From Tubiluchus corallicola (Eukaryota > Animalia > Priapulida), in assembly GCA_030141605.1 (NCBI GenBank), contig JAQGDQ010001879.1:1-22557 (forward strand): a stretch of DNA of 22,557 nucleotides, given 5' to 3'. How positions within the stretch are numbered: position 1 is the stretch's first letter; every line of letters starts with the position of its first letter. The position numbers and the translations under genes are program-made. The notes under the pieces were generated by a model. It made no database searches, was not told the DNA's origin, and saw only the letters and a program-made list of their open reading frames with translations. Positions 1,376 to 22,557 of the stretch are shown here, in pieces.

Positions 1376-1951
1376 GTGCTGTGTAACTAGCGATATTTTC
1401 TGCTATTTCAACTTTCCCTTCTACGATTTCGTTTCTGTGTCGTGTGCACAGTTTCTGTACTCAAAGAGTGACTGTGTTAGGAAGTAGCAAAATGCTGTAA
1501 TGTATTGGTTTAAAAAGTATTAAATTGAATTGACGTACAGTAGGAAAAAAGACAAAAATCGATTTTATGCAGTTGATTACGAGAAAATGCTCAAGGAAGA
1601 AGATAAACGAAAAAGAAAAAATCAGATACAATTTTTTGTCTATGGCTCAAGTTTGAGAGACTGATGTATTCACGAAATTATTATTTTTATCCTTGTGGTA
1701 TTTTTTTGTTTTTGGTAAGTCCGCAGTACGAATTTGTCCAATTTCTGCGTTTTTGTTGCTTTTGCTACTTTAATTTTGTCATACCACTCACGGAAATTTC
1801 AAACAACGTTATAAGTTTTAAAAATGGTAGATTTTTCCATTAAAATAATTTACTTATTAAATAGTGCCTTTACAATGTTTAAAACATTTTGCTTGCTAAA
1901 TTTTTGCCCTTAAAGCTGTGAAAATATTGAACACTGGCTGGATTTTCTTAA

Positions 1952-2408
1952 CCCTTTTAGTCCCAAATAATTTTTTTAATAAGAAAATTTTTTTTGGCTT
2001 GCTACATTTGTTCAGTATGTCCATCTTGTTTACACATAATTGTTTTTTTCTACCTGTGCCCGTGTGCTAAATATAGCCTGTATCCCACGGGATACATTGA
2101 GATTCAATGGAAGCATGAAATGTGCTTCATTTTGCAACTGCTGATAATTTTTTAAAGTATTTAAGACATTTAGCATGCATGCTATGCTGATCTGTACAAA
2201 GTCGTCTCTAAAGTACTGTACCTTGCGCAGTTTTTTACGCTCCGTAGATTTTCTAGTTTGCCATTTTATCACCATTTTTAGTCTATTGTTATTGGCTTAA
2301 ATCAAAATAACTATTAACAGATCAAATAACCGTCAGTTTTAAAATTTTATTAATTTTAAAGGCAGAAAATATTCTCGTATCCCACGGGATACAACGGGTA
2401 TGAAAGGG
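1952..2408 (+). mobile_element. Non-autonomous piggyBac-like MITE, copy 1 (457 bp)
   Basis: TTAA at 1948-1951 and 2409-2412; ends CCCTTTTAGTCCC...GGGTATGAAAGGG (imperfect 13-bp TIR); near-identical to 10225-10678 and 14455-14912. TTAA TSD with CCC...GGG ends is the piggyBac signature. Strand is arbitrary. Confidence 0.9.
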
Positions 2409-2559
2409 TTAATCAGTTTATAGTGTGAATTAAAAATGGCACTTCTTATAAAAACAGACTCTTTTCAGAGAGAAAGTATTAACACAGAATGAATATACAG
2501 AGCTTTTCAAAATTATTGAAAATGGCTTTACAATGTGCCATTTTGAAGGAAATAGATCC

Positions 2560-3890: not shown

Positions 3891-3909
3891 GTTCGTTACT
3901 GCGGCGTAG

Positions 3910-4120
3910 GGAGTAGCTAGGGTGTAGGATGGAGTAGCTAGGGTGTAGGATGGAGTAGCTAGGGTGCAGGAGGGAGTAGCTAGGGTGTAGGAGGGAGTAG
4001 CTAGGGTGTAGGAGGGAGTAGCTAGGGTGTAGGATGGAGTAGCTAGGGTGTAGGAGGGGAGAAACTAGGGTGTAGGATAGAGTAGCTAGGGTGTAGGAGG
4101 GAGTAGCTAGGGTGTAGGAC
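3910..4120. repeat. G-rich 21-bp minisatellite, ~10 copies (GGAGTAGCTAGGGTGTAGGAK)
   Basis: Directly visible; gives rise to the LHPSYS(L/I) repeat ORF at 3880-4155. Confidence 0.97.
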
Positions 4121-6107: not shown

Positions 6108-6536
6108 CAGGATCGGATTATGACATTTTGGGGCCCCTAGGCTAATGAAATTGCCCTCTCAGATGTAGGCCTCTTTTATCTTAGATAAGAGGCTTCAAAC
6201 AATGGCCCTTTGTCTCAAATCTAGGGCGTCAAACAGGGGCCCTTATCTCAAATTCAGGGCGTCAAACAGGGGCCCTTATCTCAAATTCAGGGCGTCAAAC
6301 GGATGCCCTTTATTTCAGTAAAAGACTTCAAACAGAGCTCTTTAACTCAAATAAGGGTGACTTCTTTAAAACTGGGTATTCGGACTCCAGGGTGTCCCTT
6401 TTTTAAAGTGGAAATTTTATTTTAAGTTAACTGAATTATTAAACTTGTTGTATTTGAAAATCTTTTAGCAGGGCCCGTCAAACTTGAGGGACTTTAGGCT
6501 GCAGCCTATACTAGCCTATAGAATAATCCATCTCTG
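6108..6536. mobile_element. Old hAT-like MITE with internal 33-bp tandem repeat
   Basis: Imperfect TIR CAGGATCGGATTAT...ATAATCCATCTCTG; flanking 8-mers CTTACGAT/TTTGTGAT differ by three transitions (possible decayed 8-bp TSD); internal unit AAACAGGGGCCCTTATCTCAAATTCAGGGCGTC at ~6197-6300. Confidence 0.55.
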
Positions 6537-6695: not shown

Positions 6696-6805
6696 TCTTT
6701 ACAGTTCAGCAATCGTTGCATTAATAATTAATTTTCAGCTCGCACAAGAGAGTGAGTGCATGCATTAAAGAGTGAGAGAGAGAGAGATTATTATTATCAT
6801 CATAC

Positions 6806-6887
<82 letters not shown>

Positions 6888-7033
6888 TCATCATCATCCA
6901 TCATCACCATCACCACCACCACCATCACCACCATTACCATCATCATCACCATCACCATCATCATCACCATCATCATCATCATTCTTTACAGTTCAGCAAT
7001 CGTTGCATTAATAATTAATTTTCAGCTCGCACA
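6696..7033. repeat. Exact 51-bp direct repeat (6696-6746, 6983-7033) enclosing (GA)n, (ATT)n, (CAT)n and (CAC)n simple repeats
   Basis: TCTTTACAGTTCAGCAATCGTTGCATTAATAATTAATTTTCAGCTCGCACA occurs on both sides of the microsatellite block. Confidence 0.93.
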
Positions 7034-7073
7034 TTAGTTTTCTATAAATATTAGTAAGGCCTCCTTTTCTTAC

Positions 7074-7614
7074 CGTTCTCATTCAACTCGAACGTTTTAT
7101 GAATCAAGCCCAAAATGGAGTAGTGCTCAAAGGCATTTTCGATACTCAACAGCTTTGCTCCAAGCATACTGCACTTGCTATTGGCGGTTGCCCACGTGGT
7201 CATGTCTGAACTTCCTGTAAGAATCTTGTAACATCCCCCGGCGGCGTAGTCGAATTCTCCTGGACAGGAGTTGCACGAGCAGTTCGAATCTGGTAACTCG
7301 TTTCTTGCTCTCCTTACTTGAACTTGTATCGGTATTGCAGCTACTTCATTGATAGGATCAACCCATTTCTCTGCCATATCAGCCATATCATCCCAAGGTT
7401 CAGCTTTATCATCCCAAGGTTCAGCTTTATCACTCGAAGGTTCAGGTTTATCATCCCAAGCTTCAACTTCATCATCCCAAGGTTCAGCTTTATCATCCGG
7501 AACCAGAAGTTCAGCCATTCCGGTCAAATGCTCTTCCTCTTTGAGGATGGAAGATTCGTGTGAGCCTAATAAAAAGCTCAGAGCGCAAAGTGTTATAATC
7601 ACCGTCTTCTCCAT
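7074..7614 (-). CDS. C-type lectin gene 1, exon 1 (signal peptide, acidic heptad-repeat pro-region, RRAR site, N-terminal half of the CTLD)
   Basis: MEKTVIITLCALSFLLGSHES signal; DDKAEPW repeats; CP.EF.Y..GGCYK...TW..A...C...GAKLLSIE...E CTLD pattern; donor G|GTAAGA after 7074 (541 nt, phase 1) is in frame with exon 4845-4625. Joined product ~253 aa. Confidence 0.93.
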
Positions 7615-8959
7615 TATAAGACACAGGCTGGTTTCTTGTAGCGACGCGAAAGCTAGTAGGCAAAAGTTAAGTAGGCCTTATCGTGCTTGTAGGAGCACCT
7701 TTATTTGCTATTTATGTTTAACACACTGATAAAGTAAGCATTAACTTACTGATAAAATTGACAGTTCCTAGTATTGTAAGTAAACCGTTAGTCATAAGTC
7801 ATAAGTCATTTATTTCACCTTACACATTTACAATGGTTAAATATACAATATCTAGTGAAAGGGCCTACAATGGGTATAATACAAATAAGAAATACTGCAC
7901 AGGAAAAGCCTCAAGCACTGTTCACTTATACACGAAGGTAAATGTGTTGCGGGCAATCAAAAAGCAGGGCTTGTTAGATTGTCCCACACAGTGAAAGAAA
8001 AAAATAGTAATGGAGATAATCTGAAAATTTAAAGTGAATCGTGATAAAAAAACATTAGTGCTTAAAATGGAATGATGTAATGAATGAAGCTCATATATGG
8101 GATGATATAAAAGATAGAAAGACTATTATTTTTTAATAGTATGTAAAATTAAAATAACGTTTGTTGGACTTACCATGTAATAGCATTAGGGAAGTGTACT
8201 GTAGACTACATTAGGGTAGGGAAGTTTAAATATGATGTTTGCTCAGAGTTGCACGATATGATTAGACTTTAGCAGTTGATGACGCCGTTATATAATGTCA
8301 GAAGAACATTGACGCATATTGAATGTTCCTGTGGACTTTAGCACTGCATAATTGTATTGTTTAGGAAACAATTTGATGATATACATTTTGTTATGCAGTT
8401 GTGCCATAATGAATGTTTTTTTGAGACTTAGACTTAGCAGAAAGTTGTAGTATCTTGGGCAGGTGCTGCCATCTTTTGGTTGTTTGCCTGTAAAATTAAT
8501 TTACCTATTTCTTAAGTTGTTTACTCTACTATCTATTTACTTACCATTTGCTGGGTTTCAACTAGAGTTAATGAGGTGTAACAGGAGTCCTGGCTATTGT
8601 ATGTTGGGCAGTAGTAGTTCAGGTTTCAAATTTCATAATGTAGTTTAAGGTATGCTGGCTACAAATTATATTTTGTGGTTTTTTATTTACCTAAACTGAG
8701 GTTAGTGCTTTAAATTTAATTTTTGTTGTAGTGTAGTGAATTATTAAGTTCTAAATGTTGCTTTTTACTTTTATTATTTCAGACTGAAATTTATGTTGAA
8801 ACCCCCCCCCCCCTCTGCACCAGCTTCACTTCTTCTTTTTTTTGATAATAAAGGAAATCAACCTGTACCAAAGTGTTCATCATTTTTTTATTGAGGTTAT
8901 GGGTTACAGACAGACAGACAGACAAACTGGACGAAACAATAATAGTGAACGATAAACCA

Positions 8960-9675: not shown

Positions 9676-10224
9676 TTGTGACTGGATACCACATATTTAT
9701 GAACCATTGCCGCTTATTAACCATTACGTTAATATTTGTTGTGGAATAACCAGTAATGGTTTATTAACTTCTAGTGTTCACAGTCATAATGTAACGATAT
9801 TGTTAATTCTAACAAAAGTAGAGTTGATACAATTTGTACCTCCCTTCTGTGATATGGTACAGCTGGTACAGGATGAGAGTTTATGCCTGCTGTGCCAAGC
9901 TGAGCCTGTAACGCCATTAGCAGAACGTATAAGTTCTAATTGCTAGGTCTTGAGTTCAAGTCTGGACTGACTCAAAAATTTACAGTATTTTTTTCTATCG
10001 TCAACTTATTAGTCGTTACAATAATGGTTCAGAATACAAGATGATTTGATTTATTTTTCGTTCATTAAATTATAACCAGAGATTAATTAAATGTTTATAG
10101 AAATAATTCTCAATAGTTCATTAATTTCTGGTTGTAACTCATTGAATGAAAAATAATTTTCCTTCATTTTGCATTTTTATCTTAACTATGTCAGCCTGGT
10201 GCACCTTTGGTCAGACCTAATTAA

Positions 10225-10678
10225 CCCTTTCAGTCCCAAATTGTTTTTTAATAAGAAAATTTTTTTTCATCTGGTACTTTTGTTCAGTATGTCCATCTTG
10301 TTTACACATAATAATTATTTTTTTTCTACCTGTGCCCGCATGCTAAATATAGTCTGTGTCCCACGGGATACATTGGGATTCAATGGAAGCATGAAATGTG
10401 CTTCATTTTGCAACTGCTGATAATTTTTTAAAGTATTTAAGACATTTAGTATGCATGCTATGCTGATCTGTACAAAGTCATCTCTAAAGTTCTGTACCTT
10501 GCGCAGTTTTTTTATGCTATGTAGATTTTCTAGTTTGTCATTTTATCACCATTTTAGTCTATTGTTATTGACTTAAATCAAAATAACTATTAACAGATCA
10601 AATAACTGTCAGTTTTAAAATTTTATTTATTTATTAAAATATTCTCGTATCCCACGGGATACAACGGGTATGAAAGGG
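10225..10678 (+). mobile_element. Non-autonomous piggyBac-like MITE, copy 2 (454 bp)
   Basis: TTAA at 10221-10224 and 10679-10682; CCCTTTCAGTCCC...GGGTATGAAAGGG; colinear with copy 1. Confidence 0.9.
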
Positions 10679-11089
10679 TTAAAGGTCTTGCATACACTAC
10701 GTGAACATTTATTTGTGTATTCTCGGAAGTTGCACATTCCCGCTCATATGTTTCCCAATCCATACTTTTTCCTGTTCGAATGACACAATTTATGTAGTAG
10801 ACATAATAATTACTTTACGTAGTGCTACTTGTCAAATCATGACCATAGTACATAAACCAATTTATTTAGCAGACATAGTAACTATTTTTTACATAGTGTT
10901 TCTTTTGTTGCCCAATTATTACTATAGTTCATTTACCAGTTTATGATTAGGTTCCACATCCAGCCGCCAACATCACGCCTACTGTAGGCGGTTATGGCAT
11001 GACAGGAATCTAGCTTATTATTACTTAAAGGTAGATCTTTAAAGCACAAGAAAACGCTCTTCAAAGCACAATCAACCACTAAAATATCG

Positions 11090-12350
11090 AATAAGCTATT
11101 AACGTGACTCGAACAAATATCTTTACCAAAAAGTACCACAATGAAAACGTCTACATAATAAGAAAGGTATCCAAAGATAATAAGCTATTAACGTGACTCG
11201 AACAAATATCTTTATGAAAAAATACCACAATGAAAACGTCTACATAATAAGAAAGGTATCCAAAGATAATAAGCTATTAACGTGACTCGAACAAATATCT
11301 TTATCAAAAAAAGTACCACAATTGAAACGTCTACATAATAAGAAAGTAATCCAAAGGTAATCAGCTATTAACATGACTCGAACAAATATCTTTACCAAAG
11401 AAGTACCACAATGAAAACGTCTACATAATAAGAAAGTAATCCAAAGGTAATCAGCTATTAACATGACTCGAACAAATATCTTTACCAAAGAAGTACCACA
11501 ATGAAAACGTCTACATAATAAGAAAGTAATCCAAAGATGATAAGCTATTAACGTGACTCGAACAAATATCTTTACCAAAGAAGTACCACAATGAAAACGT
11601 CTACATAATAAGAAAGTAATCCAAAGATAATAAGCTATTAACGTGACTCGGACAAATATCTTTATCAAAAAAAGTACCACAATGAAAACGTCTACATAAT
11701 AAGAAAGTAATCCAAAGGTAATCAGCTATTAACGTGACTCGAACAAATATCTTTACCAAAGAAGTACCACAATGAAAACATCTACATAATAAGAAAGTAA
11801 TCCAAAGATGATAAGCTATTAACGTGACTCGAACAAATATCTTTACCAAAGAAGTACCACAATGAAAACGTCTACATAATAAGAAAGTAATCCAAAGGTA
11901 ATCAGCTATTAACGTGACTCGAACAAATATCTTTACCAAAGAAGTACCACAATGAAAACATCTACATAATAAGAAAGTAATCCAAAGATGATAAGCTATT
12001 AACGTGACTCGAACAAATATCTTTACCAAAGAAGTACCACAATGAAAACGTCTACATAATAAGAAAGTAATCCAAAGATAATAAGCTATTAACGTGACTC
12101 GAACAAATATCTTTACCAAAGAAGTACCACAATGAAAACGTCTACATAATAAGAAAGTAATCCAAAGGTAATCAGCTATTAACGTGACTCGAACAAATAT
12201 CTTTACCAAAGAAGTACCACAATGAAAATGTCTACATAATAAGAAAGTAATCTAAAGATAATAAGCTATTAACGTGACTCGAACAAATATCTTTATCAAA
12301 AAAAGTACCACAATGAAAACGTCTACATAATAAGAAAGTAATCCAAAGAT
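11090..12350. repeat. 90-bp minisatellite, ~14 copies
   Basis: Unit TAAGCTATTAACGTGACTCGAACAAATATCTTTACCAAAGAAGTACCACAATGAAAACGTCTACATAATAAGAAAGTAATCCAAAGATAA repeated head to tail with few variants. Confidence 0.98.
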
Positions 12351-12400
12351 ATAGATACATTGTATTAATAAAGTAAAGTCAACAGACTTCTAAGTAAGGC

Positions 12401-12652: not shown

Positions 12653-13285
12653 TATAGGTTTTATATGTCAAATGTAGACCGACGTTAACTCAAATGTAGA
12701 TTTAGGTAATTCAAATGTGTCTTGGTAACTCAAATGTAGACTTTGGTAGTTCAAATGTGTTAACAATGGTTTTCAAGAATTCTTAAGCATTTTTGGTAAG
12801 TCAAATGTAGACACGTGTCAAGTCAAATGTGACATTGGTATCTCAAATGTGGATAGGTGTCAAAATAATAACTTTATAGGTCTACTAATAGTTCACTAAT
12901 ATTCTGTAAACTTTACATACCATTGGAACTATTAGAGAAAACAATACATTCTTAAAATAAGTAATGTTTCTTGAGAGAAACTAATTCCTTAATGCAGCGC
13001 TAATGCATTACTTAAAAAACTAATTAGTGATTCACTGTTCATTGGGAAGTGATGCTGCCGATAGCACCATGACCATAAAATGTAATTTTAATTTCGTTTT
13101 ATCTTTTCGTAATTTGCACTTAAATGAGTTGATTACCGATTTATTCAAAGTACCGCATCTACATTTGACTTACCTAAGTCACATTTGAGTTACCAAAACA
13201 CATTCGAAATTCCTATGTCTACATTTGACTTACCTAAGTCACATTTGAACTTTCCTGTGTCTACATTTGACGTGTAAAACCTATA
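12653..13285. mobile_element. Non-autonomous TIR element (MITE/small foldback) in the lectin 2 intron, superfamily unassigned
   Basis: 27-bp inverted ends TATAGGTTTTATATGTCAAATGTAGAC / GTCTACATTTGACGTGTAAAACCTATA (2 mismatches); repeated subterminal TCAAATGT motifs on the left and ACATTTGA on the right at ~20-bp spacing. Confidence 0.85.
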
Positions 13286-13655
13286 AAATTGAGACTCAGT
13301 AATGTAATTACTAGAACGTTTGACAATCACGTACATTTATATGTGGCATCTTTCATATAACAAGTCCATATATGTAATAAAATAAGGGCAGTGTAACATT
13401 AAGGCTCTTGAAAAAATTGAAACACATTCGTGAAAGTTATGATTAATATAGAATTTGAGACTTTAAAATGGCTAACAGCCAGTCTGTGAACGGAAGTCTC
13501 TTTTCTTTGTAAGAAAAACTTTTTAAAATGAGAATGTGCTTGATTTATCCAGACGTAATTCATGCTACTCTTGTAGGCCAAATTGGTAGCCAGTCAATTT
13601 CGTTTAATTGTACTGCAGTCGTTTCGTTTTTTGTTAAAATTGATTATTTTCTTAC

Positions 13656-14106
13656 CCTTTGGGTTGGTTCTGGACGTTTCGTAAATTAGGCCCAAAACGG
13701 AGTAGTGCTCATAGGCACTTTCGATGCTTATCAGCTTTGCTCCGTGACTTCTGCATTTGCTGTCAGCTCCAGACCATGTGGTCAAATCTCCAGTTCGTGT
13801 CAGGATCTTGTAACAACCCTCTCCATTGTAATGAAATCCCCCTGGACATGGGTTATACCGATTTCCCGCTTTTGCTTCTAATAACTGCTCCTGTGCCTCT
13901 TTTGGTTGTACTTCTGATGCGTCATTTGACTCTTTGGTGTCGTCTTCATTTGTTGAGACAACCGTGTTCAAAATATCAGCATCACCATCACTTTTTTCCA
14001 ATTGTTTATCAGTATTTTTTTCTTGATTTAAAGCAGAACATTTGCAAAAAGCGAATAAAACGAATAAAATACCGATACCGCAAAATAAACTCAATTTCTT
14101 TCCCAT
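13656..14106 (-). CDS. C-type lectin gene 2, exon 1 (signal peptide, acidic pro-region, N-terminal half of the CTLD)
   Basis: MGKKLSLFCGIGILFVLFAFCKCSA signal; CPGGFHYNGEGCYKIL...TWSGADSKCRSHGAKLISIESAYEHYSVLGLI, paralogous to gene 1; donor G|GTAAGA after 13656 (451 nt, phase 1), same intron position as gene 1. Joined product ~222 aa. Confidence 0.93.
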
Positions 14107-14174
14107 TTTGCAGTTAGTTGTGACATACGTTCATATACGTAGAGATATAAATAAGTTTGTTGTCTAGTAAGTTG

Positions 14175-14201: not shown

Positions 14202-14454
14202 TGCCTCGTTTTGTCAGTCAAAGTTGTCTCATTTTGCTAGACAAATAAGTTGTCAGTGTGATGAAAGAATTCCTTCTTAGATTCTTAACGTCGAATGTCT
14301 TTCTGATCTGCACTACTTTGAGGTCAACGACGGATGTCGTGTTGTTGTTTCTCAGCTTGACAGCATGAAATATTTTCCTGTCAGGTTTATGACCCCTTTA
14401 ATAATCGTTTTAGATCTTGTGCCTAAGAAGAATAAGTGCACCAACCTTGATTAA

Positions 14455-14912
14455 CCCTTTCAGTCCCAAATTATTTTTTTAATAAGAAAAATGTTTTTGG
14501 CTTGGTACTTTTGTTCAGTATGTCCATCTTGTTTACACATAATAATTACTTTTTTCTACCTGTGCCCGCGTGCTAAATATAGCCTGTATCCCACGCGATA
14601 CATTTGGATTCAATGGAAGCATAAAATGTGCTTCATTTTGCAAATGCTGATAATTTTTTAAAGTATTTAAGACATTTAGTATGCACGCTATGCTGATCTG
14701 TACAAAGTCGTCTCTAAAGTACTGTACCTTGCACAGTTTTTATGCTATGTAGATTTTCTAGTTTGTCATTTTATCACCACTTTTAGTCTATTGTTATTGG
14801 CTTGAATCAAAATAACTATTAACAGATCAAATAACTGTCAGTTTTAAAATGTTATTAATTTTAAAGGCAGAAAATTTCTCGTATCCCACGGGATACCACA
14901 GGTATGAAAGGG
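14455..14912 (+). mobile_element. Non-autonomous piggyBac-like MITE, copy 3 (458 bp)
   Basis: TTAA at 14451-14454 and 14913-14916; CCCTTTCAGTCCC...AGGTATGAAAGGG; colinear with copies 1 and 2. Confidence 0.9.
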
Positions 14913-15281
14913 TTAAATTTTGGCATCATAAGTGTAAATACAACAATGTTATTGGGAAATTCAGTAAGTAAAGAAGTTCATTGATATCAACTGATATTTG
15001 GCATATGTGATAAAAGTATCATGATAAAATATCTATAGGACATTTTGTAAATAATAACTTCATTTGCTATCTGCTACCTTGTGCTAATTTTTTATTTACT
15101 GTAAATTTATTTTGCATGTTTATGTGAAAGCCTAGAGATATCCAGTAATTAAAAAAACGAGTTATGAACCTTTTCAATACTGGAACTACTAACGACTGCA
15201 GGAGGCACATTTTATGAACTCTTTAGTTGTTTTCTGCAACTGTATTCCATTATACAAAGATTATAACGACAAACATCTTGT

Positions 15282-16084: not shown

Positions 16085-16630
16085 CCCCCTTTTGTTTAGT
16101 TTCGAGCGTTTATACTAATTATGGCCGCATTACAGTAGTTTTCCTAGGCACCTTCGATGCATAGCAATTTTGCTCCCACACTTCTGCTTTTATTGTCAGC
16201 TCCAAACCACATTTTCAAGTCTGCAATCTACTTCCTCTTAAAATCTTATAACATTCGCCTGTAACATACTGAAATGCTGACAGTAGTTTTCCTAGGTACC
16301 TTCGATGCATGACAATTTTGCTCCCACACTTCCGCTTTTATTGTCAGCTCCAAACCACATTTTCAAGTCTGCAATCTACTTCCTCTTAAAATCTTATAAC
16401 ATTCACCTGTAACTTACTGAAATCCTGACCGACATGAGTTCAGAAATTTTATAGCCTTTCATTTCCAGCTTTTGTTTTTATCAATTTTTCTGTTGCTTCT
16501 GTAACTGAGCTTCTAGCTGCATTGTTTTTAAAGGAAGACAGGATGATTTTTCATATACAACGCCATTTTCAGTTCCGATAAAAAGTATACGTTTTAACAC
16601 AATTAATACTGCAAAAGCATTTCTGATAAT
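16085..16630 (-). pseudogene. C-type lectin pseudogene (exon 1 remnant) with internal 148-bp tandem duplication
   Basis: Minus strand: EATEKLIKTKAGN / NSCRSGFQ*VTGECYKILRG / DLKMWFGADNKSGSVGAKLSCIEGT*ENY aligns with lectin 2 exon 1; stops and frameshifts; 16132-16279 duplicated at 16280-16427. No convincing exon 2 found. Confidence 0.85.
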
Positions 16631-17196
16631 TAAATTACAGATTAGAGACTATTGATGACGTCACAAACTAACATAATTTTCATAAGCAAAAATGTTCCAC
16701 GAGCGTGTTGCACGTGTTTGCGAAAGCGAAAATTGAAGTACAGTGCTTGGTCACACTTCACACTCACGCACAGGACGTCTCTCGTAGATCAGGGGCCTTG
16801 GCATTGCTATACATTTATTATATTGTAATGTTATTTAATAAAAGTGTTATTCCACAAACAAAGTCTTGATAGCTTTGCCATTACTCAAACGTTTATAAAC
16901 AGCTACACACACTGCCTACACACGTACTACCACTATACCACAGACTTAATAATTTTACTCATTGTAATGATTACATCATTCAAGTATGCTGTATTTTAAA
17001 GCACAAGAAATATTCTCCATAAATAAAGCTTTAAAAATTCTTCTTGAATTTATATACAATTTGCGTACTGCCAATAAACAAACAAACAATTTTTAAATAT
17101 TGAACAATCTATTTTATAAAGCCAAGTGACTTAGTACAGAAATGGTGCATCACTTAGTAAAATACAGAAATCGCAAAATGGGAAAGTTTTTGCGAA

Positions 17197-19461
17197 TTTT
17201 GCGTGTCTCAGTTTGAACCTTTGAGTGTCTCAGTTTGAACCTTTGCATGTCTCACTTTGAACCTTTGCGTGTCTCAGTTTGAACCTTTGAGTGTCTCAGT
17301 TTGAACCTTTGCATGTCTCAGTTTGAACCTTTGCGTGTCTCAGTTTGAACCTTTGCGTGTCACAGTTTGAAACTTTGCGTGTCTCAGTTTGAAACTTTGA
17401 GTGTCTCAGTTTGAACCTTTGCGTGTCTCAGTTTGAAACTTTGAGTGTCTCAGTTTGAAACTTTGCGTGTCTCAGTTTGAACCTTTGCGTATCTCAGTTT
17501 GAACCTTTGCGTGTCTCAGTTTGAAACTTTGAGTGTCTCACTTTGAAACTTTGAGTGTCTCAGTTTGAACCTTTGCGTGTCTCAGTTTGAACCTTTGCGT
17601 GTCTCAGTTTGAACCTTTGCGTGTCTCAGTTTGAAACTTTGAGTGTCTCAGTTTGAACCTTTGCGTGTCTCAGTTTGAACCTTTGCGTGTCTCACTTTGA
17701 ACCTTTGCATGTCTCACTTTGAACCTTTGCGTGTCTCAGTTTGAACCTTTGCGTGTCTCAGTTTGAACCTTTGCATGTCTCAATTTGAACCTTTGCGTGT
17801 CTCACTTTGAACCTTTGCGTGTCTCAGTTTGAACCTTTGCATGTCTCACTTTGAACCTTTGCATGTCTCACTTTGAACCTTTGCGTGTCTCAGTTTGAAC
17901 CTTTGCCTGTCTCAGTTTGAACCTTTGCATGTCTCAATTTGAACCTTTGCGTGTCTCACTTTGAACCTTTGCGTGTCTCACTTTGAACCTTTGCATGTCT
18001 CACTTTGAACCTTTGCGTGTCTCAGTTTGAACCTTTGCGTGTCTCAGTTTGAACCTTTGCGTGTCTCACTTTGAACCTTTGCATGTCTCACTTTGAACCT
18101 TTGCGTGTCTCAGTTTGAACCTTTGCATGTCTCAGTTTGAACCTTTGCATGTCTCAATTTGAACCTTTGCATGTCTCAGTTTGAACCTTTGCGTGTCTCA
18201 GTTTGAACCTTTGCATGTCTCACTTTGAACCTTTGCGTGTCTCAGTTTGAACCTTTGCGTGTCTCAGTTTGAACCTTTGCATGTCTCAGTTTGAACCTTT
18301 GCGTGTCTCAGTTTGAACCTTTGCATGTCTCAGTTTGAACCTTTGCATGTCTCAGTTTGAACCTTTGCGTGTCTCAGTTTGAACCTTTGCGTGTCTCAGT
18401 TTGAACCTTTGCATGTCTCAGTTTGAACCTTTGCGCGTCTCACTTTGAAACTTTGCGCGTCTCAGTTTGAACCTTTGCGCGTCTCACTTTGAAACTTTGC
18501 GTGTCTCAGTTTGAACCTTTGCGTGTCTCAGTTTGAACCTTTGCGTGTCTCAGTTTGAACCTTTGCATGTCTCAGTTTGAACCTTTGCGCGTCTCACTTT
18601 GAAACTTTGCGCGTCTCAGTTTGAACCTTTGCGCGTCTCAGTTTGAAACTTTGTGCGTCTCAGTTTGAACCTTTGCATGTCTCAGTTTGAACCTTTGCGT
18701 GTCTCAGTTTGAACCTTTGCGTGTCTCAGTTTGAACCTTTGCATGTCTCAGTTTGAACCTTTGCGTGTCTCAGTTTGAACCTTTGCGTGTCTCAGTTTGA
18801 ACCTTTGCGTGTCTCAGTTTGAACCTTTGCGTGTCTCAGTTTGAATCTTTGCGTGTCTCAGTTTGAACCTTTGCGTGTCTCAGTTTGAACCTTTGCGTGT
18901 CTCAGTTTGAACCTTTGCGTGTCTCAGTTTGAACCTTTGCATGTCTCAGTTTGAACCTTTGTGCGTCTCACTTTGAAACTTTGCGCATCTCAGTTTGAAC
19001 CTTTGCGCGTCTCACTTTGAAACTTTGCGCGTCTCAGTTTGAAACTTTGAGTGTCTCAGTTTGAACCTTTGCGTGTCTCAGTTTGAACCTTTGCGTGTCT
19101 CAGTTTGAACCTTTGCATGTCTCAGTTTGAACCTTTGCGTGTCTCACTTTGAAACTTTGCGCGTCTCAGTTTGAACCTTTGCGTGTCTCAGTTTGAAACT
19201 TTGTGTGTCTCAGTTTGAACCTTTGCATGTCTCAGTTTGAACCTTTGCGTGTCTCAGTTTGAACCTTTGCGTGTCTCAGTTTGAACCTTTGCATGTCTCA
19301 GTTTGAACCTTTGCGTGTCTCAGTTTGAACCTTTGCGTGTCTCAGTTTGAACCTTTGCGTGTCTCAGTTTGAACCTTTGCGTGTCTCAGTTTGAACCTTT
19401 GCGTGTCTCACTTTGAACCTTTGCGCGTCTCAGTTTGAAACTTTGTGTGTCTCACTTTGAA
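17197..19461 (+). repeat. 21-bp tandem array, ~108 copies (TTTGCGTGTCTCAGTTTGAACC-type unit); left arm of the foldback
   Basis: Directly visible; variants GCGT/GCAT/GAGT/GCGC, CAG/CAC and AAC/AAA. Confidence 0.98.
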
Positions 19462-20415
19462 TTACTGGAAATGCCAAAATTTCTTCGCTTCATTTCTGAA
19501 TTCCTCCAGCTTTGCTGTATAGATGAACACATTCGCCAATGAGTTGCAATATGCTGGTAAGTGAAACCAGTAAAAGTTGTTCCTGTTAATGGCGTATGTG
19601 TCGCCGTGCATGAACCATGAAAACAAGGACACAATCATTGGGACGTAACACACATAAAACATGGCGATTACGATTCCTAAAGTCGTTACCGGTTTGAGTT
19701 TTGCTCTTAATTCAGATGTCCTATTTCTGGCAGCATCTTCTGGTTGGCTTCTCTGAAGTGTCCTGGCAGTGTTCCGTATTTCACGCCCGTGTTTCAGGGC
19801 AGTTCTTAACATCCTTACATAAAAATAAACAAGTATGGACCATATTATTGGAACATATACTGCATATCCAATGCAAAAATGTTGCATGAATATCCCATTA
19901 GGAGAGGGTAAACATTCGTTTGAAGGTTTCTGATCGTTCACATACACTACGAAAGTGCTGATTGTAATTACAAATAAAAACGTCAGAACCAAAGCTATGT
20001 AGATCTTTAGTTTACGATCCGTGAATAACCTGTGATAGTGGAATGGATATACAATGCTAACGAAGCGCTCAGCAGTAGCAAGAACGTAAAAGAACACAGA
20101 GCTAGTAATGCACTGCATTGGAATGAGATACAAAATGCCACAAAGAATGACACTTCTGCTCTGTGGTTCCGTAATTTCAAATGCAGTGGTTTGTATAATC
20201 AAGAAGAACCCAGCTAGCAGATCAGCAATGGAAAGACTGCACAGAATGTAGAAGAGTGGCACGTGCAGGTTGTGCGATTTGATGATGACCACGACGACGA
20301 AAGCATTGAAGATGATGATGGCGATGCCCAAAACTATAGAGAAAATGTCGAGTGTTACTCGAAGTTGAAGATCATCAATTTCAGTGCTAACATTAACAGA
20401 GTTATTTTTCTCCAT
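19462..20415 (-). CDS. Class A (rhodopsin-like) orphan GPCR, single coding exon, 317 aa
   Basis: Seven hydrophobic segments; N-terminal NNS/NVS sequons; TM1 FN, LHVPLFY..SLSIADL (TM2), AERF..IVYPFHY (TM3/ICL2), FYVCYVP (TM6), NSLANVFIY (TM7), helix 8 EEFR. Confidence 0.95.
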   Translation of the reverse strand: MEKNNSVNVSTEIDDLQLRVTLDIFSIVLGIAIIIFNAFVVVVIIKSHNLHVPLFYILCSLSIADLLAGFFLIIQTTAFEITEPQSRSVILCGILYLIPMQCITSSVFFYVLATAERFVSIVYPFHYHRLFTDRKLKIYIALVLTFLFVITISTFVVYVNDQKPSNECLPSPNGIFMQHFCIGYAVYVPIIWSILVYFYVRMLRTALKHGREIRNTARTLQRSQPEDAARNRTSELRAKLKPVTTLGIVIAMFYVCYVPMIVSLFSWFMHGDTYAINRNNFYWFHLPAYCNSLANVFIYTAKLEEFRNEAKKFWHFQ

Positions 20416-20969
20416 TCCTCAATTCTAGACTGCATGCGCTAATAGGAAAAAAGTAAAGATTTCCTATTTCAGAATTGTTGCATAAATTCGAATGAATGTA
20501 CATTCATCACACGCTCCTCTACCCGATAGCTGGTCAGATAAATGGAAATCATCATTACCCATGTATCACCTATTATACACAATGTTCTCTTGTCAGTGTT
20601 GTGATGTATTGGCTTAGCTAATGAAATGTTTGTCCATCCATTATACCTGTACTGATCCAGACTAGGTGTTGACAAAAAAGATCCAGGATGTTTTCTGGGA
20701 AACGTCAGGAGAAGCAAATAAATTTTTTAGGTCAGGGTTTATTTGCTGAATTGTGACAGCAAATATGTAAACTATACCAGTTTGTCATCAAACAGTTTTA
20801 TAAAAAGGATTAATATATATGTGTTTAATAGTTGAGTAAACTCACAAGAAAAGCAACATTCAGCAATCCATATTAGTCAGAATTGCACTAGTTTTCATAT
20901 TAAATTAGCACAATAAAGAGAAATAATGTGAATGTATGAAGAAGTTTTACATCTAAAACAAATTCTCAG

Positions 20970-20971
<2 letters not shown>

Positions 20972-21041
<70 letters not shown>
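20972..21041. repeat. (TA)n microsatellite
   Basis: Directly visible. Confidence 0.98.
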
Positions 21042-21045
<4 letters not shown>

Positions 21046-21327
21046 TATTGATCATAAAATTGTCATAAATAATACCGTCCATATGAAGTTCCATTCTGTT
21101 AGAGAAATTTCGTAAACATGTACAACACATGAAAGTTGACCAAAGTTTGCAAAGTGTGCTAATAACATATTAAGAAGTAATATACTTTTGCGACTATTAC
21201 ATCTATTGTAGACCGACAATGAGCAGTTGTATTGATATAATAATGCCTGCGAAAGTAAATGATGCAATATTTCGAAACAAGCTGAGAAAAAACAACAAAA
21301 AGATCTGACGTGATGAACCTTGTATCC

Positions 21328-22557
21328 CAAAGGTTCAAACTGAGACATGCAAAGGTTCAAACTGAGACACGCAAGGTTCAAACTGAGACACGCAAAGGTT
21401 CAAACTGAGACACGCAAAGTTTCAAGGGTGAGACGCGCAAAGGTTCAAACTGGGGCAGCGCAAAGTTTCAAAGTGAGACGCGCAAAGGTTCAAACTGAGA
21501 CATGCAAAGGTTCAAGCTGAGACACGCAAAGGTTCAAACTGAGACACGCAAAGGTTCAAACTGAGACATGCAAAGGTTCAAACTGAGACACGCAAAGGTT
21601 CAAACTGAGACACGCAAAGGTTCAAACTGAGACATGCAAAGGTTCAAACTGAGACACGCAAAGGTTCAAACTGAGACACGCAAAGGTTCAAAGTGAGACA
21701 TGCAAAGGTTCAAACTGAGACGCGCAAAGTTTCAAACTGAGACGCGCAAAGGTTCAAATTGAGACGCTGAGACGCGCAAAGTTTCAAAGTGAGACGCGCA
21801 AAGGTTCAAAGTGAGACATGCAAAGGTTCAAAGTGAGACACGCAAAGGTTCAAACTGAGACACGCAAAGGTTCAAACTGAGACACGCAAAGTTTCAAAGT
21901 GAGACGTGCAAAGGTTCAAAGTGAGACGCGCAAAGTTTCAAAGTGAGACGCGCAAAGGTTCAAACTGAGACATGCAAAGGTTCAAACTGAGACACGCAAA
22001 GGTTCAAACTGAGACACGCAAAGGTTCAAACTGAGACATGCAAAGTTTCAAAGTGAGACATGCAAAGGTTCAAACTGAGACGCGCAAAGTTTCAAAGTGA
22101 GACGCGCAAAGGTTCAAACTGAGACATGCAAAGGTTCAAACTGAGACACGCAAAGGTTCAAACTGAGACACGTGTTTAAACTGAGACATGCAAAGGTTCA
22201 AACTGAGACACGCAAAGGTTCAAACTGAGACACGCAAAGGTTCAAACTGAGACATTCAAAGGTTCAAACTGAGACACGCAAAGGTTCAAACTGAGACACG
22301 TGGTTCAAACTGAGACATGCAAAGGTTCAAACTGAGACACTCAAAGGTTCAAACTGAGACACGCAAAGTTTCAAACTGAGATGCAAAGGTTTAAACTGGA
22401 TACGCAAAGGTTCAACTGAGACACGGGAATTTTCTAACTGAGATAATCAAAGTTTCAAACTGAGACACGCAAAGGTTCAAACTGAGACACTCAAAGTTTC
22501 AAACTGAGACACGCAAAGTTTCAAACTGTGACACGCAAAGGTTCAAACTGAGACACG
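21328..22557 (-). repeat. 21-bp tandem array, at least ~58 copies, reverse complement of 17197-19461; right arm, cut off by the window end
   Basis: Unit CAAAGGTTCAAACTGAGACACG-type; degraded at ~22370-22450. Confidence 0.98.

What the first reader, a model, noticed from the sequence alone, without database searches (positions are those of the whole stretch)
17334..22557. The two arms carry rare unit variants in mirror order, predicting the hidden right terminus
Seen: the GTCACAG variant (A17362) pairs with CTGTGAC (T22529), and the GCGTATC variant (A17491) pairs with GATACGC (T22401). Coordinate sums are 39891 and 39892, and the intervening AAA/AAC and GAGT/GCGT variants follow the same order. 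GAGT units are mostly outer and GCGC units mostly inner in both arms. Inference: these are homologous ends, not two unrelated satellite patches. The right array should end near 22695, followed by something like CGCAAAATTCGCAAAAACTTTCCCATTTTGCGA.
Basis: partly seen in the sequence, partly recalled or inferred. Interest (0 to 1): 0.72.

Follow-up and report, generated by a model that had tools for sequence, protein, structure and literature searches.

The report
Mirror repeat arms around receptor gene
In an animal genome, two mirror-image copies of the same 22-base repeat array bracket an intact receptor gene; they likely come from one local inverted duplication rather than from an abundant jumping gene, and the predicted matching far end was not supported.

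Summary
All 56 right-arm units in the window align in mirror register with left units 7-63, with one unit gap and 96% identity (0 of 500 block shuffles reach the score). The left arm has 40 extra inner units. Between the arms lies a complete, intronless 317-aa rhodopsin-type GPCR ORF whose stop codon abuts the left array. Public-run contigs suggest the 22-bp array is largely confined to this locus, show no second GPCR copy, and show one unbroken contig across the proposed terminus at 17160-17197. That argues against independent insertions of an abundant element and against the predicted mirrored terminus. The right end could not be read: no genome is held and the window ends in the array. Best reading (0.45): a local inverted duplication, likely a staggered-break inversion of the 1.87-kb gene segment. 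Close rival (0.37): a lone foldback-type transposon carrying the gene, like Drosophila Ssk-FB4. No target duplication, transposase or parent gene was found or testable. This scan noted similar foldback-like builds in other animal genomes.

The parts
17198..19461 (+). Left arm: tandem array of 103 units of 22 bp
17330..18587 (+). Part of the left arm (units 7-63 plus 4 nt) that is the mirror partner of the visible right arm; 96% identical, one unit gap
18584..19461 (+). Inner 40 units of the left arm (64-103) without a partner in the right arm; likely an internal expansion (self-match at offsets of 24-25 units)
19462..20415 (-). Intact intronless ORF, 317 aa, rhodopsin-family GPCR; its TAA abuts the left array directly
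   Evidence: (PF00001, E 4.7e-30, profile 2-260 of 260); junction bridged by an X2 contig
20416..21327 (.). Upstream spacer of the GPCR (913 nt from ATG to right arm), with an (AT)34 microsatellite at 20974-21041
21314..21337 (.). 8-bp fold-back stem with 8-nt loop at the right arm's inner junction (21314-21321 pairs with 21330-21337)
   Evidence: may be chance (BLAST E 8 for this 8-mer match)
21328..22557 (-). Right arm: inverted copy of the array, 56 units plus 4 nt, cut by the window end; carries 24 private differences and 10 inserted bases against 5 private differences in 102 left units
17066..17197 (.).

Best explanation
The two arms are inverted copies of one 22-bp minisatellite array that bracket an intact GPCR ORF seen in only one copy, and they likely arose in one local break-and-repair event, most likely a staggered-break inversion of the 1.87-kb gene segment that copied the array to its far end. 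Shown: mirror homology over 56 units, 96% identity, 40 extra inner units on the left, and a complete ORF whose stop codon abuts the array. Roughly estimated: the array is largely confined to this locus. Inferred: an array of about 63 units first lay 0.9 kb upstream of the gene. Breaks staggered across the array plus a break just after the stop codon inverted the gene segment, and fill-in left one array copy on each side in opposite orientation. A template switch that inserted an inverted copy of the array would leave the same picture. Inferred: the left arm then grew by internal duplications, and conversion within each arm spread different variants without losing register. Inferred and untested: with no canonical poly(A) hexamer for 2.6 kb, a transcript would carry the left array as its 3' UTR, and recombination between the arms could flip the gene.
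For: Mirror colinearity. Variant 5A is shared at 12 aligned units (15 left, 14 right; p 6.5e-8) and 13C at 10 (14 left, 11 right; p 2.8e-7), while 6C is shared at only 2 (3 left, 10 right). The arms are therefore diverged copies, not one read folded back. Locus restriction: de Bruijn simulation of the window's arrays alone predicts 47-634 single-copy depths at 17202-17235 over 18 parameter settings. X1 shows 238-281 if the flank contig (178.8) is the per-copy depth, or 477-562 at half that. X2 gives only 32-34. No second GPCR copy at 80% identity or more in X2 or X3; the only other contigs laid inside the ORF are short matches to a GAT-rich patch at 20279-20328. No similar gene piece in the window's left 17 kb. 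One unbroken contig over the left flank. The closest homologues end at the same column or one residue earlier, so the ORF is not truncated. The staggered-break model and duplications of 46 bp to about 1.9 kb are described in PMC1885836 (passages).
Against: The build (long inverted arms made of short tandem units, unequal lengths, variable middle) is typical of foldback transposons (PMC4079207, PMC3169594, PMC3573991; passages). A small foldback-like MITE at 12653-13285 shows such elements exist in this genome, and its units weakly resemble this unit (14 of 400 shuffles reach the score against the non-array window; ungapped profile test not significant, 5875 of 20000). X2 depth is 9.2-13.2 on the left flank but 4.7-5.6 in the interior, and the simulation fits all five bins best at half depth. 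Both would suit one haplotype carrying the flank twice as a long outer domain, although X2 depth also falls steadily towards the window end. A break exactly at the stop codon needs luck or selection. The right inner junction (21328) was not checked in reads.
Confidence: 0.45

Rival explanations
1. A lone or very low-copy, transposase-less foldback-type transposon: the arrays are its terminal inverted repeats and the GPCR is captured cargo (Pack-TIR type, like Drosophila Ssk-FB4). The parent gene would be lost or long diverged.
For: The architecture matches FB, Tetris, Tm1 and Galileo, including arms that differ in unit number. Whole-gene capture by FB4, with loss of the 3' end, is documented, and FB4 has only six full-length copies in the fly reference (PMC8277862). 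Both inner junctions cut mid-unit. A foldback-like MITE with weakly similar units lies 4 kb away. The X2 flank-to-interior depth near 2:1 and the half-depth simulation fit would suit a hemizygous element with a long outer domain. Tm1 has only 7-bp non-inverted ends, so a missing mirrored terminus is not fatal.
Against: No sign of many dispersed copies, no second GPCR copy in X2 or X3, no shared inner domain between the arms, and no ORF of 80 aa or more with a transposase match among the 5 ORFs scanned against Pfam. The MITE's units face the opposite way relative to its ends and its termini do not match.
Confidence: 0.37
2. Assembly or library artefact: the right arm is the other haplotype's allele of the same array, joined in reverse near a contig end, for example at the palindromic (AT)34 tract or by a chimeric read.
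For: The window ends inside the right arm. X2 depth falls towards it, and the right arm has many private changes clustered near the end. Alleles of one minisatellite would align colinearly with patchy differences (my knowledge).
Against: The 1.87-kb spacer is not self-mirrored except for the AT tract. The arms differ by recurring, patterned alleles, which a fold-back read of one molecule cannot give. An X2 contig bridges the stop-codon junction. The artefact would need a second haplotype with a different 290-bp segment and its own AT tract.
Confidence: 0.1
3. Two independent insertions of one multicopy repeat-carrying element, in opposite orientation on either side of a resident gene.
For: A shared variant order would follow from a common donor.
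Against: Array depth is roughly explained by this locus. The two inner ends share no terminal sequence. The left outer end is covered by one contig.
Confidence: 0.05

Closest known systems
Inversions with inverted duplications at both breakpoints, by staggered breaks (Ranz et al. 2007, PMC1885836; passages read)
   Same: Inverted duplicate of one sequence bracketing a unique segment; the inferred original duplicate (about 1.4 kb) is within the reported range of 46 bp to about 1.9 kb.
   Different: There the duplicates are mostly genes or non-repetitive DNA at the ends of large, outgroup-proven inversions. Here the duplicate is a minisatellite array, the segment is 1.87 kb, and no outgroup was available.
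Ssk-FB4 and animal Pack-TIRs (Tan et al. 2021, PMC8277862; passages read)
   Same: A membrane-protein gene between long, internally repetitive inverted arms, with the 3' side cut short.
   Different: Ssk-FB4 has a known parent gene, target-site duplications at three loci and a dispersed FB4 family. Here no parent or dispersed family was seen and the target duplication could not be tested.
Foldback-like transposons Tetris (PMC4079207), Tm1 (PMC3169594) and Galileo (PMC3573991); passages read
   Same: [quoted passage not shown]
   Different: Those have modular arms (flanking, outer and inner domains or terminal motifs), 7-10 bp target duplications and multiple copies. Here the visible arms are pure array, end mid-unit on the inside, and enclose an intact host-type gene.
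Rhodopsin-family (class A) GPCR, Pfam PF00001
   Same: Full-length 7tm_1 match; N38, D66, the ERF motif, C169 and a TM7 NVFIY motif are kept, in line with close homologues; best solved relatives are 5-HT1 and adrenergic receptors.
   Different: The best homologue by E-value among 1.84 billion representatives is only 30% identical and unnamed. The TM4 tryptophan kept by all 7 aligned homologues is Leu144 here. The ligand is unknown.

Membership tests
Foldback-type DNA transposon | Long inverted arms containing tandem units | tested here: met
Foldback-type DNA transposon | Target-site duplication flanking both ends | not testable with these tools
   Right end lies outside the window; no genome held
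Foldback-type DNA transposon | Dispersed copies or empty sites | tested here: inconclusive
   Depth fits about one locus but cannot exclude a few copies; no empty-site branch in the left-flank contig
Foldback-type DNA transposon | Shared non-repetitive terminal domain ending near 17160-17197 | tested here: not met
   One unbroken contig in X1 and X2, no second contig at 85% or more over 17083-17184; very short or filtered termini are not excluded
Foldback-type DNA transposon | Transposase in the element or a related autonomous partner | tested here: inconclusive
   None between the arms; the rest of the genome could not be searched
Pack-TIR (Tan et al. 2021) | Non-TE sequence between inverted arms | tested here: met
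   GPCR ORF and spacer
Pack-TIR (Tan et al. 2021) | Parental copy of the captured sequence | tested here: not met
Staggered-break inversion with inverted duplication | Inverted duplicate of one sequence at both ends of a unique segment | tested here: met
Staggered-break inversion with inverted duplication | Segment inverted relative to an outgroup or ancestral allele | not testable with these tools
   No related animal genome is searchable; right flank unseen
Class A GPCR (PF00001) | Full-length 7tm_1 match above the curated cut-off | tested here: met
   105.4 bits against a cut-off of 30.5, profile 2-260 of 260

The most novel reading that the evidence does not exclude
A foldback transposon, or a pair of arms acting as one, has taken over the genome's only copy of an intact GPCR gene: the receptor now sits in a mobile or invertible cassette, uses a 2.3-kb satellite as its 3' UTR, and its two arms stay in unit-by-unit register while each arm homogenises its own variants.
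Probability: 0.15. Interest if true: 0.65.

Novelty: new member of a known kind. Interest (0 to 1): 0.38.

Why it matters
The locus is a readable record of how a minisatellite array evolves after duplication: 56 units in mirror register let one separate shared variants from variants spread within one arm, and show a one-sided gain of 40 units. If the transposon reading holds, it would be a second animal example beside Ssk-FB4 of a whole protein-coding gene carried in foldback arms. Three paper searches found no report of a GPCR in such a setting (open-licence library only). If the local-duplication reading holds, it is an ordinary rearrangement with a neat signature.

Tried and rejected
No whole genome is held, so the next 200 bp could not be read. 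The proposed terminal 23-mer had 0 matches in metagenome contigs. The unit 20-mer had 0 matches in viral contigs and 3 single matches in metagenome contigs, none in an array; I treat these as chance. No RNA holder was listed and nothing was laid from X6: no evidence on expression either way. X3 has no contig over 16964-16980 and 17083-17184, nor over parts of the interior, and X5 has next to nothing; these holes are not used as evidence. X1's left-flank contig ends at 17225, two bases before the simulated 17227; this could mean a second array end sharing only 2 nt beyond the array, another haplotype or an error branch, so I give it no weight. A fold-back read artefact centred on the spacer was rejected. 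Truncation of the GPCR by the array was rejected. Rfam gave only weak matches far below gathering scores. The protein atlas gave no answer, so the animal group is not identified. A viral-contig search with alignment A1 could not run. The word-index protein search gave 2 distant hits. Earlier findings by place, by sequence and by the first word set gave nothing relevant.
Full report
Setting. The window is AT-rich, microsatellite-rich DNA with MITE-like repeats and a rhodopsin-type receptor ORF, so an animal genome. No whole genome is held. The animal group was not identified: the five closest homologues are unnamed Logan or ENA proteins.

Observation. The coordinates are exact, and each of the four rare motifs occurs once. 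I split both arrays into 22-bp units: 103 on the left (17198-19461) and 56 plus 4 nt on the right (21328-22557, inverted, cut by the window end). Left units 7-15 match right units 1-9, with the first 111 bases identical. No shuffle reached this score (0 of 20000, also when only the outer 25 left units were shuffled). The best ungapped diagonals were not reached by 2000 global or 2000 block shuffles. GAGT units are outer and GCGC units inner in both arms.

The mirror is longer than reported. A gapped unit-level alignment places right units 1-56 on left units 7-63 with one unit gap (score 76.9; reversed order 31.2; 0 of 500 block shuffles, maximum 32.2). Without the first nine units, 28 variant alleles are shared in register against 5-19 in 46 slid registers. 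Right units 10-36 lie on the same diagonal as units 1-9, so they were not fitted by the gap, and 5A (p 4e-5) and 13C (p 2.5e-3) still agree. Nucleotide identity is 96.2% excluding gaps; aligned unit pairs average 95.2% against 90.8% for random pairs. The arms differ in a patterned way: in right units 10-36 six carry 6C and six carry 20A, where the left partners carry none and two, none shared. Left units 64-103 have no partner and match earlier left units at offsets of 24-25. The right arm has 24 private differences and 10 inserted bases against 5 on the left; some may be consensus errors near a contig end, which I did not test.

The middle. The 1866-bp spacer holds an intronless 317-aa ORF on the minus strand. 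It matches PF00001 over profile positions 2-260 and is nearest to 5-HT1 and adrenergic receptors among solved structures. Its TAA abuts the left array. Homologues P0004 and P0005 end at the same column or one earlier, so the protein is not cut short. An X2 contig bridges that junction; X2 is from the sample that may be the window's source, so this checks the assembly but is not independent. X3, from another study, matches the window without a difference in three contigs totalling 1007 bp. No second GPCR copy at 80% or more was laid in X2 or X3. None of 11 poly(A) hexamers occurs in the left array; the first canonical one lies 2.6 kb past the stop.

The predicted terminus. The extrapolated array end is 22693, unseen. 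The proposed mirrored terminus could be tested indirectly. In X1 and X2 one contig runs unbroken from about 16931 into the array, and the depth over 17083-17184 equals that contig's depth alone (178.8 and 9.21). An identical second end would branch the graph near 17170, and a similar one would be laid as a second contig. Neither is seen.

Copy number. I simulated the k=31 graph of the window's two arrays and laid the pieces as the tool might. Over 18 settings the predicted summed depth at 17202-17235 was 47-634 single-copy units. X1 shows 238-281 or 477-562, depending on whether 178.8 or half of it is the per-copy depth. Best fits need about one locus; the most restrictive setting would allow 5-10 times the window's content. 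X2 falls below the window-only best fits. The tool warns that summed contig depth is no copy number, so this is a rough bound: not an abundant family, but a few small copies are possible. The half-depth fit is the better one, and X2 depth is about twice as high on the flank as inside, which leaves a hemizygous element with long outer domains open. X2 depth also declines steadily (13.2, 9.2, about 7.5, 5.6, 4.7) towards the window end.

Mechanism. Shown: two diverged inverted copies of one array around a gene seen once. Inferred: a single local event. Staggered breaks across an array plus a break after the stop codon, followed by inversion and fill-in, give exactly flank, array, inverted gene, inverted array. 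This model is described for Drosophila inversions, with duplicates up to about 1.9 kb (PMC1885836; passages). A template switch would give the same picture; microhomology-mediated inverted insertions are described in yeast (PMC11724301; abstract only), and an 8-bp fold-back stem sits at the right inner junction, though it may be chance. This reading needs no lost parent gene and no lost family, so I put it first (0.45). The foldback-transposon reading is close (0.37), because this build is typical of such elements (PMC4079207, PMC3169594, PMC3573991; passages) and whole-gene capture is known from Ssk-FB4 (PMC8277862; passages). A neighbouring foldback-like MITE has weakly similar units, but the test was chosen after seeing the match (8 of 3000 against the MITE alone; 14 of 400 against the non-array window) and the orientation is opposite. 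Artefact 0.10; independent insertions 0.05.

Novelty. Both leading readings are known kinds. Searches for a GPCR captured in foldback arms, or inverted minisatellite arms around a gene, listed nothing relevant (listings only). The scan's own notes list six foldback-like builds in other animal genomes; they are unchecked and not used as support. No supplements were read. Verdict: observation confirmed and extended, homology of the arms supported, predicted terminus not supported, mobility unproven. Interest 0.38.

Noticed in passing
window 12653-13285: Small foldback-like MITE: inverted ends of about 28 bp flanked by TA or TATA, each arm with 6-8 degenerate tandem units of 19-22 bp around a shared ACATTTGA core; units weakly resemble the 22-bp unit of the finding.
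   Followed up: partly
window 1948-2412, 10220-10682, 14451-14916: Three copies of a 465-bp MITE, about 94-95% alike, bounded by TTAA and CCCTTT...AAAGGG ends; resembles piggyBac-type MITEs (label recalled, not tested).
   Followed up: partly
window 16777-16960 and 16995-17048: Two dispersed high-copy repeats in the left flank, with sharp ends in read contigs at 16959-16960, 16995-16996 and 17048. The start of the second also appears near 11039, just before the 90-bp array.
   Followed up: no
window 11090-12351: Another locus minisatellite: 14 copies of a 90-bp unit, 94% alike, with alternating variants. Smaller arrays lie at 3908-4119 (21 bp), 6191-6300 (33 bp) and 16132-16429 (148 bp).
   Followed up: no
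window 7051-7677, 13594-14130 and 16132-16429 (minus strand): Open frames of 208 and 178 aa without Pfam match share a 73%-identical 181-bp stretch (7092-7272 and 13674-13854), and the 148-bp repeat at 16132 looks related by eye; possibly repeated exons of one gene family.
   Followed up: no
window 6696-6746 and 6983-7033: A perfect 51-bp direct repeat brackets an (ATC)n microsatellite, like a local duplication around an inserted simple repeat.
   Followed up: no
window 19986 (GPCR residue 144): The TM4 tryptophan kept in all 7 aligned homologues is leucine here; the X2 and X3 contigs over this place show no difference from the window.
   Followed up: partly
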